Shown one piece after another: positions 15,001-18,000 of a DNA stretch of 38,324 bases. This stretch comes from a virus (Duplodnaviria; Heunggongvirae; Uroviricota; Caudoviricetes). The DNA lies in IMG/VR virus record IMGVR_UViG_2718218135_000002, positions 1 to 38,324 of that record, one strand, 5' to 3'. Made by a program: the position numbers. Numbering within the stretch: the stretch's first letter is position 1; each line of letters starts with the position of its first letter.

Positions 15001-18000
15001 CCTGGTCACGCACTGTTAAGCCTCTGTATGACGCTCTGGTGGTGCAATGCCACAAGGAAGAGTCAATCGCAGACAACATTTTGAATACGGTCACACGTTA
15101 GCTGCATGATTGCCACGGATGGCAACATATTAACAGCATGATATTGACTTTTTGAATAAAGTTGGGTAAATTTGACATCAACGATGGATAAATGCACTCG
15201 TTAAATAAAGCCCTGAGTTAATAGCTCGGGGCTTTTTGTGTTTTAAGCACGGCCTTTCTGAAAGCACATCAAACCAAATACCAGACAGACAAAAATAATC
15301 ACCTTATCCGCTGTGGCTACGGTGCGGTGTGCTTTGCATAAAAGAAAACTAGCTCAATGTCTGGCTTCGTGAAAGCTGGTGACAGGAGGTTGCGCTAACA
15401 ACCTCCTGCCGTTTTGCCCGTGCATATCGGTCACGAACAAATCTGATTACTAAACACAGTAGCCTGGATTTGTTCTATCAGTAATCGACCTTATTCCTAA
15501 TTAAATAGAGCAAATCCCCTTATTGGGGGTAAGACATGAAGATGCCAGAAAAACATGACCTGTTAGCCGCCATTCTCGCGGCAAAGGAACAAGGCATCGG
15601 GGCAATCCTTGCGTTTGCAATGGCGTACCTTCGCGGCAGATATAATGGCGGTGCGTTTACAAAAACAGTAATCGACGCAACGATGTGCGCCATTATCGCC
15701 TGGTTCATTCGTGACCTTCTCGACTTCGCCGGACTAAGTAGCAATCTCGCTTATATAACGAGCGTGTTCATCGGCTACATCGGTACTGACTCGATTGGTT
15801 CGCTTATCAAACGCTTCGCTGCTAAAAAAGCCGGAGTAGAAGATGGTGGAAATCAATAATCAACGTAAGGCGTTCCTCGATATGCTGGCGTGGTCAGAGG
15901 GAACAGATAACGGACGACAGAAAACCAGAAATCATGGTTATGACGTCATTGTAGGAGGAGAGCTATTCACTGATTACTCTGATCACCCTCGCAAACTTGT
16001 CACGCTAAACCCCAAACTCAAATCAACAGCAGCCGGACGTTACCAGCTTCTTTCCCGTTGGTGGGATGCCTACCGCAAGCAGCTTGGCCTGAAAGACTTC
16101 TCTCCGAAAAGTCAGGACGCTGTGGCATTGCAGCAGATTAAGGAACGTGGCGCTTTGCCGATGATTGATCGCGGTGATATTCGTCAGGCAATCGACCGTT
16201 GCAGCAATATCTGGGCTTCACTGCCGGGCGCTGGTTATGGCCAGTTCGAGCATAAGGCTGACAGCCTGATTGCAAAATTCAAAGAAGCAGGCGGAACGGT
16301 CAGAGAGATTGAGGTATGAGCAGAGTAACCGCGATTATCTCCGCTCTGGTTATCTGCATCATCGTCTGCCTGTCATGGGCTGTTAATCATTACCGTGATA
16401 ACGCCATGACCTACAAAGAGCAGCGCGATAAGGCCACATCCACAATCGCTGACATGCAGAAGCGTCAACGTGATGTAGCAGAACTTGACGCCAGATACAC
16501 AAAGGAGCTTGCTGATGCTAACGCGACTATCGAAAGCCTCCGTGCTGATGTTTCTGCTGGGCGTAAGCGCCTGCAAGTCGCCGCCACCTGTGCAAAGTCA
16601 ACGACCGGAGCCAGCAGCATGGGCGATGGAGAAAGCCCAAGACTTACAGCAGATGCTGAACTCAATTATTACCGTCTCAGAAGTGGAATCGACAGGATAA
16701 CCGCGCAGGTTAACTACCTGCAGGAATACATCAGGACGCAATGCCTTCGATGATAGCGATAATTTTACTCATCATCCTTCACATCTGGCTCTGTAGACAG
16801 GGTGATGATCACTTCTGGAGTGAATCCAGATTAAACATCTCATTGCTGATGCTTGATATTGAGCATCTTGCGCGCGGTAAGGGGCTGCGTTGAGATAAGA
16901 GCCAGTCATTACAAATACCAGGATTTAGCCTCGCATTCGCGGGGCTTTTTATTGCAACAAAGGTAAAGACGATGGATGAAGAATATCGTAAAGACCTGCA
17001 ACTGTGGTTTGGTCTTACGCATGCGCCGTTCTGCGTGATGCCGCGAGTATTCATGGAGGCTATGCCGCCAGAATGGCAAGAGAAGATGGCTCAGTTGCTT
17101 TTTGAGTATAGCGACACAATCAAAACGGATGTCTGCGGAGTTCACAGCTGTTTTGTTACTGCCAAAGACGGCAACAACCGCTTTATGAGGATGCCAGAAG
17201 ATATTCTGAACTATCGTCATCCCCGACGTGAATTCATCGAATCAGTTCTGAAGAAGTAGCCATTACAAAGCCTATCTACTGGTGGGCTTGATAATGAAAC
17301 CAGAATTTATTCTTGGCAACCAGTTACGGCAGTACAGCGAAACAACCCAAGCCAGTAAGTGGGGAAATAACACTGGCAGCCACTGAAAGATGAACCTCCT
17401 GCCTTATGGCAAAAAAGATTCTTTGTGGTGGCGGACTGATGGAAAGACATCGGTTATTGCAGAGACCATTCAATGAGTGGTCTCGACAATGGCTTATACC
17501 CTACACGGGATAACTTAACTGATATTCCTTTTAACGGATAAACGGAGCCAACAATGGCAGAGATTATTCCCATGACTGAAGAACAGAAATTCCAGTTAGA
17601 GATTTACAAACTGGTCATGAACCAGAACGCAGCCGCAGAAGAAGCATTTCAATTCATTGGCACTGACGAACTGAAGCTTGAGCTATTCAAAATTCACTTC
17701 CAGTCAGGCGGCGCTAATTCAGATATCACGACCCGCACTATCGAAGCGGTACGTAAATCGAAGGAAGCGTTAGACCTGTTCACTACCGGAGCGTAAACAT
17801 GGCAACTCAAGGTTTCGACAACCCATCCAAATTCCGTGATGAATGGGATAAGCAAGCAGAAGGGAAATAATCAATATGGCGACTGAGAAAAAGAATGTCG
17901 GTCGCCCTTCGGATTACCTGCCGGAGGTGGCTGATGATATCTGTGCGCTGCTTGCCTCCGGGGAAAGTCTGGTTAAGGTTTGCAAGCGCCCCGGCATGCC

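What the first reader, a model, noticed from the sequence alone, without database searches (positions are those of the whole stretch)
16928..17796. Two unknown genes and a long noncoding gap between the lysis cassette and terminase
After Rz/Rz1 there is a terminator-like hairpin (16928-16952), a 95-aa ORF, about 290 bp without a convincing ORF (containing a GAGACCA-N9-TGGTCTC inverted repeat at 17463-17485), and an 80-aa ORF before the small terminase. This junction is a known moron insertion site in lambdoid phages. The noncoding stretch could hold a small RNA or the packaging signal.
Basis: inference. Interest (0 to 1): 0.4.

Follow-up and report, generated by a model that had tools for sequence, protein, structure and literature searches.

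The report
Gene-cassette slots flanked by conserved hairpins
The stretch between the lysis and DNA-packaging genes of this P22/Sf6-like phage is an ordinary swap zone for accessory genes, but its "empty" 290 bp holds two copies of an uncatalogued, widely conserved RNA hairpin that marks gene ends, plus a very strongly conserved 107-base block of unknown function.

Summary
The region is the well-known variable accessory-gene ("moron") zone of lambdoid late operons, and P22 and BTP1 carry the pid moron at the equivalent spot.

- **95-aa ORF:** an intact member of a stand-alone small-protein family. It is a rare cassette: 71 of 5426 E. coli genomes and one sequenced phage.
- **80-aa ORF:** DUF2560 (P22 ORF80, HK620 hkbM, Sf6 gp67), a near-core gene of unknown function.
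- **The gap:** not a packaging signal, because phages with three different terminase types share it. No evidence supports a free-standing sRNA gene.

What the gap does contain:
- Two plus-strand copies (17258-17299, 17452-17494) of a ~43-nt hairpin: CAUUA, a CA/GA internal loop, and a 9-10 bp stem. Covariation is strong (98% paired; 9 of 10 inner pairs show compensatory changes). Rfam has no match. The hairpin usually starts right after a stop codon and sits where homology between phages breaks.
- A 107-nt block (17345-17451) that is at least 95% identical in 155 phage records and 1119 E. coli genomes.

The most likely role of the hairpins is as gene-end elements on the late mRNA that also serve as recombination linkers; this role is inferred, not shown. 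Overall the region is ordinary, with a modestly novel RNA motif.

The parts
16741..16893 (+). 50-aa hydrophobic ORF, homologue of Sf6 gene 65. It overlaps the end of Rz.
   Evidence: ORF; phrog_11822, E = 5.5e-38; annotated as gene 65/67 in Sf6, epsilon34 and APC_JM3.2.
16927..16953 (+). Intrinsic-terminator-like hairpin: 8-bp GC-rich stem, ATTC loop, then TTTTATT.
   Evidence: scan; -14.1 kcal/mol, z = -3.7. Homologous sequence is annotated as a rho-independent terminator in epsilon34, mEp235 and ES18. Homology to other phages stops at 16950-16955 in 33 loci.
16907..16915 (+). Left copy of the exact 9-bp direct repeat CATTACAAA that brackets the terminator plus 95-aa-gene cassette.
   Evidence: the only two exact copies in the window are at 16907 and 17261. 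Homology stops at 16915 in 14 loci and resumes at 17261 in 16. In Sf6 the two repeats are merged into one.
16972..17259 (+). 95-aa protein of unknown function. An intact stand-alone family member, and a rare cassette at this slot.
   Evidence: 43 cluster representatives, mostly 94-105 aa, with 16 invariant columns; this cassette, with its flanks, is fully covered in 71 of 5426 E. coli genomes. HF4s is the only sequenced phage with it; stand-alone homologues at 60-63% identity occur in Sashavirus and Carvajevirus phages; gene contexts. No Pfam, PDB or PADLOC hit. AF2 pLDDT 56.
17258..17299 (+). Hairpin element copy A (hpA): CAUUA / CA / AAGCCUAUC-UACU-GGUGGGCUU / GA / UAAUG. It starts inside the stop codon of the 95-aa ORF.
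   Evidence: covariance model R1, 60.8 bits, E = 1e-13; minus strand 10 bits. (-17.6 kcal/mol, z = -3.9, against -11.4 and z = -1.1 on the minus strand). (covariation).
17300..17344 (.). Variable junction zone. Some phages have a ~65-bp insertion between 17309 and 17316. In others, homology starts at 17319-17326 directly after the stop codon of Rha-type genes.
   Evidence: breakpoints at 17309 x22, 17316-17326 x49. (P22 rha ends where homology starts).
17345..17451 (.). Very strongly conserved 107-nt noncoding block of unexplained function.
   Evidence: 155 phage records, all at least 95% identical, 106 at 99% or more; 1119 of 5426 E. coli genomes; none of the 25 sampled rows has an annotated feature under the match; pi 0.015 against 0.070 at third codon positions of the adjacent gene; no covariation and no unusual folding energy; homology ends at 17451 in 29 loci, where other cassettes are inserted.
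17452..17494 (+). Hairpin element copy B (hpB): UUAUUG / CA / GAGACCAUUC-AAU-GAGUGGUCUC / GA / CAAUGG.
   Evidence: 61.8 bits, E = 6e-14. (-24.2 kcal/mol, z = -6.3, against -15.3 on the minus strand); allelic variants at the same site carry compensatory changes. Ayreon annotates its allele as a terminator.
17495..17553 (+). Conserved leader of the DUF2560 gene, with GGAG at 17544-17547.
   Evidence: sequence. (pi 0.010). P22 homology resumes at 17540.
17554..17796 (+). DUF2560 protein, 80 aa (P22 ORF80, HK620 hkbM, Sf6 gp67). Predicted four-helix protein of unknown function.
   Evidence: PF10834, E = 1.1e-43. (orthologues). (107 phage records); selection pattern typical of a coding gene (pi by codon position 0.006 / 0.0006 / 0.070). 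(AF2 pLDDT 71.5, four helices). (no PDB fold match); one peptide of the BTP1 orthologue in a proteome table.
17800..17871 (+). 23-aa ORF in the spacer before the small terminase gene. Doubtful as a gene.
   Evidence: sequence. (no similarity to HK620 hkbN); homology with P22-type-terminase phages runs to 17880.
17876..18301 (+). Sf6-type small terminase gene (context; right border of the region).
   Evidence: PF20901, E = 1.8e-44. (phrog_1482).

Best explanation
Window 16741-17875 is the accessory-gene zone of the Q-antiterminated late operon of a P22/Sf6-like phage. It is built from modules that lambdoid phages exchange.

**Order of modules**
1. Gene-65-like ORF plus an intrinsic terminator.
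2. Slot 1, which here holds a rare 95-aa gene bracketed by the 9-bp repeat CATTACAAA.
3. Hairpin element hpA.
4. A junction zone and a 107-nt conserved block.
5. Slot 3, which is empty here. It holds Sf6 gp66-type genes in other phages; pid in P22 sits a little further right.
6. Hairpin element hpB.
7. Leader plus DUF2560.
8. A short spacer, then the small terminase gene.

Both ORFs are real protein genes of unknown function.

**The 'noncoding gap'**
It is conserved connective sequence. Its most distinctive components are two copies of a ~43-nt RNA hairpin that folds on the late-mRNA strand. Each has an outer stem CAUUA/UAAUG, an invariant 2x2 internal loop CA/GA, a covarying 9-10 bp inner stem, and a small loop.

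**Proposed mechanism (inferred)**
- On the mRNA, the hairpin forms directly behind the stop codon of an accessory gene. It acts as a gene-end element: a barrier to 3' exonucleases and/or a double-strand-specific (RNase III-type) processing site. This would uncouple the stability of accessory-gene segments from the packaging and head genes downstream.
- On the DNA, its conserved flanks (CATTACA ... GATAATG) supply the short homology at which cassettes are gained, lost and swapped.

**Shown:** the anatomy, that the hairpin structure is under selection, its strand, its position at gene ends, and the clustering of breakpoints.
**Inferred:** processing or stabilisation, and a causal role in recombination.
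**Not explained:** the role of the 107-nt block.
For: **Mosaic slots**
- Related phages place Rha, KilA-N, GIY-YIG, HNH and other genes between the same flanks.
- Homology breakpoints in 100+ loci cluster at 16915, 16950-55, 17253-61, 17309/17316-26, 17451-53, 17475, 17540 and 17792-17805.
- pid sits at the equivalent site in BTP1 and P22 (PMC8835761).

**The two genes**
- The 95-aa family is stand-alone and conserved.
- DUF2560 shows a coding-type substitution pattern.

**The hairpin is a selected structure**
- 18 distinct variants: 97.4% of cells paired against 35-47% when partners are slid; 7 of 15 pairs changed on both sides; 0 of 500 shuffles reach the observed score.
- 48 distinct copies from wider sources: 98.3% paired; 9 of 10 inner-stem pairs have compensatory changes.

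**Strand**
- Plus strand scores 45-64 bits; minus strand 24 bits or less.
- G-U pairs are frequent on the plus strand.
- Plus-strand folds are much more stable.

**Specific to this region**
- Only two significant hits in the 38-kb window.
- All 152 plus-strand hits in 100 related loci lie upstream of DUF2560.

**Position at gene ends**
- 70 of 150 copies start at the stop codon of an open frame of at least 50 codons, against 12% of random positions.
- 31 of 36 independently found copies start 1-15 nt after a stop codon.

**Independent discovery**
- 36 of 121 matches to CATTACA-N18-28-GATAATG in IMG/VR have an inner stem of at least 7 bp. About 0.1 would be expected by chance, from my own estimate of (6/16)^7 per match.
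- Their flanking genes are Rz, Rha, DUF2560, small terminase, HNH and GemA.
- HK97, HK140, mEp235 and ES18 carry the element; lambda does not.
Against: - No transcript-end, processing or half-life data were available, so the RNA-level function is an inference from anatomy.
- The lower stem is short (5-8 bp) for a classical RNase III substrate.
- About half of the copies, including hpB in this window, are not directly preceded by a gene.
- Breakpoints also cluster at places without a hairpin, such as gene starts and stops at 16746, 17792-17805 and 17880. Hairpins are therefore not required for exchange, and clustering at hairpins may simply reflect their position at gene ends.
- The loci used for conservation estimates were partly chosen for identical DUF2560 proteins, and the IMG/VR scan fixed the flank sequences. 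Outer-stem invariance in that set follows from how it was collected.
- The covariation tests do not correct for phylogeny.
Confidence: 0.55

Rival explanations
1. The gap encodes an independent small regulatory RNA, most plausibly from the very conserved block 17345-17451, perhaps ending at hpB.
For: - The block is more conserved than the neighbouring protein gene.
- It is present in a fifth of E. coli genomes, and no annotated feature lies under the match in the rows sampled.
- Small ORFs in it are broken by indels in some variants (alignment), which argues for noncoding function.
Against: - No plus-strand promoter-like site. The only minus-strand candidate (17319-17291) matches 9 of 12 positions and points away from the block.
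- hpB has no U-tail.
- No Rfam match. The best is RF03044 at 16.8 bits against a threshold of 42.
- Folding energies are no better than shuffles (z = -0.5 and -1.35), and there is no covariation.
- The RNA-seq-based sRNA annotation of BTP1, which lists eight new sRNAs, has none between Rz and terS. I did not verify that BTP1 carries this block.
Confidence: 0.12
2. The gap carries the packaging (pac) recognition site.
For: Only its position just upstream of the terminase genes and its conservation.
Against: - The same sequence sits upstream of Sf6-type terS (this window), P22-type terS (E212), and the HNH/cos packaging module of HK97, HK140 and mEp235.
- In P22 it is separated from gene 3 by the pid locus.
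- The P22 pac site is a 22-bp sequence inside the terS gene (PMC9611059).
Confidence: 0.03
3. The hairpins are DNA-level sites. They would fold in single-stranded DNA, like integron attC sites or REP/IS200-type hairpins, and be recognised by a recombinase or nuclease that moves the cassettes.
For: - Imperfect palindromes with conserved flanks and covarying stems flank variable gene cassettes.
- Strand asymmetry and an invariant internal loop are also features of attC sites (own knowledge).
- HNH and GIY-YIG nuclease genes recur in the same zone.
- An exact 9-bp direct repeat brackets the 95-aa cassette.
Against: - No integron-type integrase or Y1 transposase was noticed in the window or in the flanks examined; I ran no dedicated search for one.
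- Many loci have hairpins but no nuclease gene.
- Junction positions vary by several bases (17253-17261; 17451-17456/17475) rather than falling at one crossover point.
- The frequent G-T pairs are better tolerated in RNA than in DNA.
Confidence: 0.1
4. The gap is decaying sequence left by past cassette replacements (for example the 'N-terminus of ST64T orf118') with no present function. Its conservation would reflect recent spread by recombination.
For: - The epsilon34 record annotates part of it as a remnant of orf118.
- Phage L has a 118-aa ORF that starts at the equivalent of 17406.
- Gene callers produce several different N-terminal extensions of DUF2560 from this sequence.
- Homopolymer indels are tolerated.
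Against: - Compensatory changes in both hairpins show selection on structure.
- Diversity in 17345-17451 is about 4.5-fold lower than at synonymous-type sites of the adjacent gene in the same 85 loci.
- The block is at least 95% identical across Salmonella, Shigella and E. coli phages whose flanking genes differ.
Confidence: 0.15
5. The hairpins are simply weak intrinsic terminators that stop non-antiterminated transcription (from moron promoters or read-through in lysogens) before the packaging genes. Q-modified polymerase would read through them.
For: - Some alleles look terminator-like (AAAAGCC...GGCUUUGAUAAU), and Ayreon's annotators called one a terminator.
- A genuine terminator lies 300 bp upstream.
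- The pid terminator in P22 stabilises its transcript (PMC8835761).
Against: - Most variants, including hpB here (…GGUCUCGACAAUGG) and the majority found in IMG/VR (…GGCUUCGAUAAUG, …GCCUGUGAUAAUG), have no U-tract.
- The terminator scan did not pick either copy.
- An invariant CA/GA internal loop and a conserved outer stem are not features of terminators.
Confidence: 0.15

Closest known systems
Morons of lambdoid late operons (own knowledge: Juhala/Hendrix 2000), in particular the P22/BTP1 pid locus (PMC3573128, PMC8835761)
   Same: Accessory genes are present or absent between conserved late-operon neighbours. pid occupies the equivalent of window 17512-17540, between the same flanks: hpB on the left, the DUF2560 leader on the right.
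   Different: pid is on the opposite strand, with its own promoter and its own terminator. The 95-aa gene here is co-oriented with the late operon. No promoter-like site was found for it, and the only terminator lies upstream of it. The window has no pid.
PeSL motifs of T4-like phages (PMC2839356, PMC4122927)
   Same: Short conserved motifs containing a stem-loop flank variable ORFs in hyperplastic regions, and are proposed to mediate modular shuffling by recombination.
   Different: PeSLs combine an early promoter with a terminator-like stem-loop. The element here has no promoter and no U-tract. It has an invariant internal loop, lies in a lambdoid late operon, and shares no sequence with PeSLs.
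'Boundary sequences' (bsq) of HK620 and Sf6 (own knowledge: Clark et al. 2001; feature 'bsq7; boundary sequence' in the Sf6 record)
   Same: Short sequences conserved between otherwise different lambdoid phages at module borders, interpreted as recombination linkers.
   Different: The only bsq feature in the Sf6 stretch examined lies inside Rz, not at the hairpins. The hairpin copies in Sf6 (about 37832-37873 and 38496-38541) are unannotated there. To my knowledge, bsq were not described as covarying RNA structures.
Intercistronic mRNA hairpins: T7 RNase III processing signals, lambda sib/tI, REP elements (own knowledge)
   Same: A stem, internal loop, stem and small loop placed between cistrons of a long phage transcript. 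These elements control segmental mRNA stability. In sib, the read-through form of a terminator hairpin becomes an RNase III site.
   Different: No sequence similarity. The lower stem is shorter than in T7 sites. No cleavage data exist for this element. It is not in Rfam.
Integron attC sites (own knowledge)
   Same: Imperfect palindromes with conserved outer motifs, covarying stems and strand-specific folding, each associated with one gene cassette.
   Different: No integron integrase was noticed (no dedicated search was run). The flanks lack the RYYYAAC/GTTRRRY motifs. The junctions are not at a single crossover point.

Membership tests
DUF2560 (PF10834) for the 80-aa ORF | Match to the Pfam model above the gathering score over the full domain | tested here: met
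   147.7 bits against a cut-off of 25, E = 1.1e-43, profile positions 1-72 of 72. The orthologues hkbM, Sf6 gp67 and P22 ORF80 are 95-99% identical at DNA level.
Rha / KilA-N type regulators (for the 95-aa ORF, considered because it matched only the C-terminal part of phrog_3527) | Presence of the N-terminal Rha or KilA-N DNA-binding domain, or evidence that the ORF is a truncated remnant of such a gene | tested here: not met
   No Pfam domain. Homologues are almost all stand-alone proteins of 94-105 aa. No DNA similarity to the Rha or DNA-binding genes at the same slot in E212 or APC_JM3.2.
Intrinsic (rho-independent) terminator, for 16927-16953 | GC-rich stem-loop directly followed by a T-run | tested here: met
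   8 pairs, 6 of them G-C, 4-nt loop, tail TTTTTATT.: -14.1 kcal/mol. Termination itself was not measured.
Intrinsic terminator, for hpA and hpB | U-rich tract immediately 3' of the stem | tested here: not met
   hpB is followed by CGACAAUGG and hpA by GAUAAUGAA. Neither was reported by the terminator scan. Most family members also lack a U-tract.
Moron (independent transcription unit inserted in a late operon), for the 95-aa gene | Gene present or absent between neighbours that are adjacent in related phages | tested here: met
   Present only in HF4s among 201 matching phage records and in 71 of 5426 E. coli genomes. In Sf6 the flanks join directly at CATTACAAA.
Moron, for the 95-aa gene | Own promoter upstream and own terminator downstream | tested here: not met
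   No plus-strand sigma-70-like site in 16300-18400 (a simple consensus scan, so weak promoters could be missed). The terminator lies upstream of the gene, and the downstream hairpin hpA lacks a U-tract.
Known RNA family (Rfam 15), for the gap | Covariance-model match at or near the gathering score | tested here: not met
   at E up to 10 only seven hits, all at less than half of their gathering scores. None overlaps hpA or hpB.
Free-standing sRNA gene in the gap | Promoter, discrete transcript and terminator | tested here: inconclusive
   No promoter or terminator was found by scans. No sRNA is annotated at the homologous place in BTP1. No transcript data exist for this phage.
pac site of P22/Sf6-type headful packaging | Site recognised by the cognate small terminase. 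It lies inside the terS gene in P22 and should co-vary with terminase type. | tested here: not met
   The gap sequence is shared by phages with three different packaging modules. P22 pac lies inside terS (PMC9611059). Binding or cutting is not testable with these tools.
PeSL (T4-type promoter plus stem-loop shuffling motif) | Conserved early promoter joined to a terminator-like stem-loop that flanks variable ORFs | tested here: not met
   The stem-loop flanking variable ORFs is present. The promoter is absent, and ATTACA and GATAAT are 21-26 nt apart, too far for a sigma-70 promoter. The resemblance is functional only.
RNase III processing site | Cleavage by RNase III within a ~20-bp interrupted helix | not testable with these tools
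   The architecture is compatible: 5-8 bp, a 2x2 loop, then 9-10 bp. No cleavage data.

The most novel reading that the evidence does not exclude
The CAUUA-CA-stem-loop-stem-GA-UAAUG hairpin would be a new, widespread class of phage cis-regulatory RNA. A specific host or phage factor would recognise it through its invariant internal loop and semi-conserved apical UUC-AMU-GAG. It would punctuate the late mRNA of many enterobacterial temperate phages (P22, Sf6, HK620, HK97, ES18 and thousands of prophages). It would also define the units in which accessory genes, including anti-defence genes, are exchanged. The adjacent 107-nt block would then be a further functional noncoding element, either a processed RNA or a regulatory site.
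Probability: 0.3. Interest if true: 0.6.

Novelty: new variant of a known kind. Interest (0 to 1): 0.42.

Why it matters
**For annotation**
- The gap should not be filled with the small ORFs that some gene callers place there (30- and 35-aa ORFs, or 102- to 129-aa 'extended' DUF2560 proteins).
- The 95-aa ORF should be kept as a real gene.

**For phage biology**
- The lysis-to-terminase junction is one of the main places where temperate enterobacterial phages carry host-interaction and anti-defence cargo such as pid.
- A conserved, structure-selected hairpin at the ends of these cassettes gives a concrete, testable handle on two old questions. One is how accessory genes inside a 20-kb antiterminated operon get their own expression level. 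The other is whether mosaic junctions in lambdoid phages are guided by specific linker sequences.
- The element is present in well-studied model phages (P22, HK97, Sf6, HK620), so experiments are easy to set up.
- The 107-nt block, found in about 21% of complete E. coli genomes with no annotation under it in the rows sampled, is a clear candidate for follow-up.

Tried and rejected
- **95-aa ORF as a truncated Rha-like gene.** Suggested by PHROG matches to only the C-terminal third of 178-233-aa profiles. Rejected because homologues are stand-alone.
- **Structure prediction of the 95-aa protein.** pLDDT 56, unusable, so no fold search was run.
- **DUF2560 model against PDB.** No match with E below 3. 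phmmer against PDB found nothing for either protein. PADLOC found nothing.
- **Gap as the 3' end of P22 rha.** First suggested by feature overlap. Rejected because homology starts exactly after the rha stop codon.
- **hkbN remnant for the 23-aa ORF.** No similarity.
- **Promoter reading of ATTACA...GATAAT.** The spacing of 21-26 nt is too long.
- **Small ORFs in the gap** (17294-17386, 17390-17476, 17406-17513, minus strand 17450-17307). All are broken by homopolymer indels in some variants, and a common polymorphism is non-synonymous in one of them (alignment plus my own reading).
- **Covariance-model hit at 8626-8666.** 13.5 bits, and it lies inside a cro-like HTH gene. Treated as chance.
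- **Consensus structure for 17319-17451.** 23 predicted pairs, none with compensatory change.
- **Search for divergent DUF2560 loci in species genomes.** Gave only 8 loci, but two of them (Citrobacter, Pantoea) supplied key hairpin variants.
- **Literature searches** for a prior description of these hairpins, or for RNase III sites in lambdoid late operons. Nothing relevant was found.
- **Function of the N-terminal part of a 344-aa Pseudomonas phage homologue of the 95-aa protein.** No Pfam domain.

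
Full report
**1. Setting**

The window is a P22-like (Lederbergvirus) genome with Sf6-type packaging genes. Around the finding, the plus strand carries these features:

| Coordinates | Feature |
|---|---|
| 15536-15859 | holin |
| 15843-16319 | endolysin |
| 16316-16753 | Rz (Rz1 embedded) |
| 16741-16893 | 50-aa gene-65-like ORF |
| 16927-16953 | terminator-like hairpin |
| 16972-17259 | 95-aa ORF |
| 17260-17553 | 294-bp gap |
| 17554-17796 | 80-aa ORF |
| 17800-17871 | 23-aa ORF |
| 17876-18301 | Sf6-type small terminase |
| 18298-19713 | large terminase |

**2. Checking the observation**

- The terminator has an 8-bp GC-rich stem followed by TTTTATT, with -14.1 kcal/mol and z = -3.7. 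Its homologues are annotated as rho-independent terminators in epsilon34, mEp235 and ES18.
- As a bare 7-bp repeat it is not significant. 12% of shuffled gaps contain one, and the window has 45.

**3. The two proteins**

*The 80-aa ORF is DUF2560.*
- It matches PF10834 at E = 1e-43 and corresponds to P22 ORF80, HK620 hkbM and Sf6 gp67.
- It occurs in 107 phage records at 95-99% DNA identity.
- Its diversity by codon position (0.006 / 0.0006 / 0.070) is that of an expressed protein gene.
- The BTP1 orthologue appears with one peptide in a published proteome table.
- AlphaFold gives four helices at pLDDT 71.5, with no significant PDB fold match.
- Longer 'DUF2560' proteins of 102-129 aa in databases are different upstream read-throughs that all converge on the same internal MAEIIP start. 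I read them as gene-calling artefacts or indel fusions.

*The 95-aa ORF.*
- It first looked like a fragment, because it matched only positions 139-230 of the 233-residue phrog_3527.
- However, 43 cluster representatives are nearly all 94-105 aa, with 16 invariant residues.
- Sashavirus, Carvajevirus and a Vibrio phage have stand-alone homologues. The Vibrio one lies directly upstream of its small terminase.
- It is therefore an intact small gene of unknown function. There is no Pfam, PDB or PADLOC hit, and the AF2 model is unusable.
- At this slot it is rare: one sequenced phage (HF4s, 98.8% identity) and 71 of 5426 complete E. coli genomes.
- The cassette (terminator plus gene, about 16916-17269) is bracketed by the only two exact copies of CATTACAAA in the window. 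In Sf6 the flanks meet at a single copy of that sequence.

**4. A modular swap zone**

Related phages put different genes between the same flanks:
- Rha (P22, Sf101, APC_JM3.2, ES18)
- KilA-N plus hkbL (HK620, HK97, mEp235)
- GIY-YIG (epsilon34)
- HNH (Dewey)
- genes labelled anti-CRISPR by an automatic pipeline (Huey), and others

Aligning 16700-17900 to more than 100 loci shows sharply clustered homology breakpoints. They fall at 16746, 16915, 16950-55, 17253-61, 17309/17316-26, 17451-53, 17475, 17540, 17792-17805 and 17880.

In P22 and BTP1 the minus-strand pid moron lies between the equivalents of 17512 and 17540. pid has a promoter, a long 5' UTR and a stabilising terminator (PMC3573128, PMC8835761). 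The window has no pid.

**5. What the gap is not**

*It is not a packaging signal.* The same sequence precedes three different packaging modules:
- Sf6-type terS (this window);
- P22-type terS (E212 and an E. coli prophage);
- the HNH/cos module of HK97-like siphoviruses.

In P22, pac is a 22-bp site inside the terS gene (PMC9611059).

*Nothing indicates a free-standing sRNA gene.*
- No plus-strand promoter-like site was found.
- No Rfam hit comes near threshold.
- The RNA-seq-based annotation of BTP1, which added eight sRNAs, lists none between Rz and terS.

**6. What the gap is: two structured hairpin elements**

Compare GAGACCAUUC-AAU-GAGUGGUCUC here with AAAGCCAYUC-CCUACA-GAGUGGCUUU in Sf6 and Ayreon. 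The outer stem changes with it (AUUG/CAAU against AUUA/UAAU). A second copy sits at 17258-17299, beginning inside the stop codon of the 95-aa ORF.

*Architecture*:
- outer stem CAUUA/UAAUG;
- an invariant 2x2 internal loop, CA opposite GA;
- a 9-10 bp inner stem whose top is often UUC...GAG;
- a loop of 3-6 nt.

*Evidence that the structure is selected:*
- 18 distinct variants, including ones next to DUF2560 homologues only 41-45% identical in Citrobacter and Pantoea. 97.4% of cells are paired, against 35-47% when partners are slid. 7 of 15 pairs change on both sides, and 0 of 500 shuffles reach the observed score.
- A covariance model (R1) finds exactly two significant hits in the whole window, both in the gap on the plus strand (61.8 and 60.8 bits). 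The next hit scores 13.5 bits and lies inside a cro-like gene.
- In 100 related loci the model finds 152 plus-strand hits, all in this zone. Minus-strand scores are 24 bits or less.
- Plus-strand folds are far more stable than minus-strand folds: -24.2 against -15.3 kcal/mol for hpB, and -17.6 against -11.4 for hpA. G-U pairs are common. The structure therefore belongs to the late-mRNA strand.

*An independent test.* A scan of IMG/VR for CATTACA-N18-28-GATAATG mostly returned chance matches.
- 36 of 121 matches had an inner stem of at least 7 bp, usually 10 bp. About 0.1 would be expected by chance on my own estimate of (6/16)^7 per match. Many of these stem sequences are new.
- 31 of the 36 begin 1-15 nt after a same-strand stop codon.
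- Their neighbours are Rz, Rha and DUF2560 upstream, and DUF2560, a Terminase_2 small terminase, HNH and GemA downstream.
- On 48 distinct copies, 98.3% of cells pair, and 9 of 10 inner-stem pairs show compensatory changes.

*Distribution.* HK97 has two copies, HK140 and mEp235 two each, ES18 one, and lambda none.

*Position at gene ends.* Among the 150 copies in related loci, 47% start at the stop codon of a frame of at least 50 codons, against 12% of random positions.

**7. How it probably works**

*Shown:* a structure-selected, strand-specific hairpin with conserved unpaired bases. It lies at gene ends inside a long antiterminated operon and coincides with several junction clusters.

*Inferred:* on the mRNA it acts as a gene-end element, a 3'-exonuclease barrier and/or a double-strand-specific processing site. 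Comparable elements are T7 RNase III signals, lambda sib and REP elements. On the DNA, its conserved flanks supply the short homology at which cassettes are exchanged, as proposed for T4-type PeSL motifs (PMC2839356, PMC4122927) and for the 'boundary sequences' annotated in Sf6.

*Why it is not a classical terminator:* most variants, including both copies here, lack a U-tract. One allele was nevertheless annotated as a terminator in phage Ayreon.

*Caveats:*
- There are no transcript data.
- Junctions also cluster at hairpin-free gene borders.
- Part of the locus sample was ascertained through an identical DUF2560 protein or through fixed flank sequences.
- The covariation tests are not phylogeny-corrected.

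**8. An unexplained conserved block**

Between the hairpins, 17345-17451 is at least 95% identical in all 155 phage records that contain it, and at least 99% identical in 106 of them. Only 2 of 107 records reach 99% for the adjacent DUF2560 gene.

- The block occurs in 1119 of 5426 complete E. coli genomes, and none of the 25 sampled rows has an annotated feature under the match.
- In the same 85 loci its diversity is 0.015, against 0.070 at DUF2560 third codon positions.
- It shows no covariation, no unusual folding energy on either strand and no promoter-like site.
- Its small ORFs are broken by homopolymer indels in some variants.
- It ends exactly at 17451, where 29 loci carry an extra cassette.
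- Possible explanations are a constrained leader, a linker kept uniform by frequent recombination, or a processed RNA. I could not decide between them.

**9. Verdict**

The region is the expected mosaic accessory zone. One ORF is a conserved gene of unknown function and the other is a rare but genuine cassette.

The added value is twofold: the ~43-nt hairpin family, which is absent from Rfam and present in classic model phages, and the very conserved 107-nt block. Both are modestly novel and easy to test.

Confidence is high for the anatomy and for selection on the hairpin structure. It is moderate to low for the proposed mechanism.

Noticed in passing
window 17345-17451: A 107-nt noncoding block that is more conserved than the neighbouring protein gene. 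It is at least 95% identical in 155 phage records and 1119 of 5426 E. coli genomes. No annotated feature lay under the match in the rows sampled, and no structure, promoter or stable ORF was found.
   Followed up: partly
window 16907-16915 and 17261-17269: The exact 9-bp direct repeat CATTACAAA brackets the terminator plus 95-aa-gene cassette. These are the only two exact copies in the window. In Sf6 the flanks meet at a single copy, a signature of insertion or deletion by short-homology recombination.
   Followed up: partly
window 16741-16893: A 50-aa hydrophobic ORF overlapping the end of Rz. It is homologous to Sf6 gene 65 (phrog_11822), conserved in many lambdoid phages, and of unknown function.
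   Followed up: partly
window 17800-17880: A 23-aa ORF lies in the spacer before terS and is not related to HK620 hkbN. Homology with phages that have a P22-type small terminase runs to 17880, five bases into the Sf6-type terS gene. A module junction therefore sits at the terS start codon.
   Followed up: partly
window 17456-17471 and 17554-17569: The 5' arm of hpB (ATTGCAGAGACCATTC) resembles the start of the DUF2560 gene (ATGGCAGAGATTATTC) at 13 of 16 positions. At least one database protein (P0047) looks like a deletion between these two repeats, which fuses an upstream 28-aa frame to DUF2560.
   Followed up: no
window 17395-17416, minus strand: A weak terminator-like hairpin on the minus strand, rich in G-U pairs. 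Phage L's record annotates a minus-strand terminator at the homologous position. Its purpose inside a plus-strand operon is unclear.
   Followed up: no
L103 2087-2130 and 2422-2461 (Pantoea eucrina prophage); L102 2436-2477 (Citrobacter): Divergent prophages, with DUF2560 only 41-45% identical, keep the same hairpin element directly after the stop codon of the gene upstream of DUF2560. Their stem sequences are different and compensated.
   Followed up: yes
L107 1492-1776 (Vibrio phage ValSw3-3): A 94-aa homologue of the 95-aa protein sits immediately upstream of the small terminase gene in an unrelated Vibrio phage. This hints at a recurrent association of the family with the packaging-gene neighbourhood.
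   Followed up: no
window 8558-8788: A cro-like 76-aa helix-turn-helix gene. It gave a weak hit to the hairpin model (13.5 bits at 8626-8666) that I treat as chance.
   Followed up: yes
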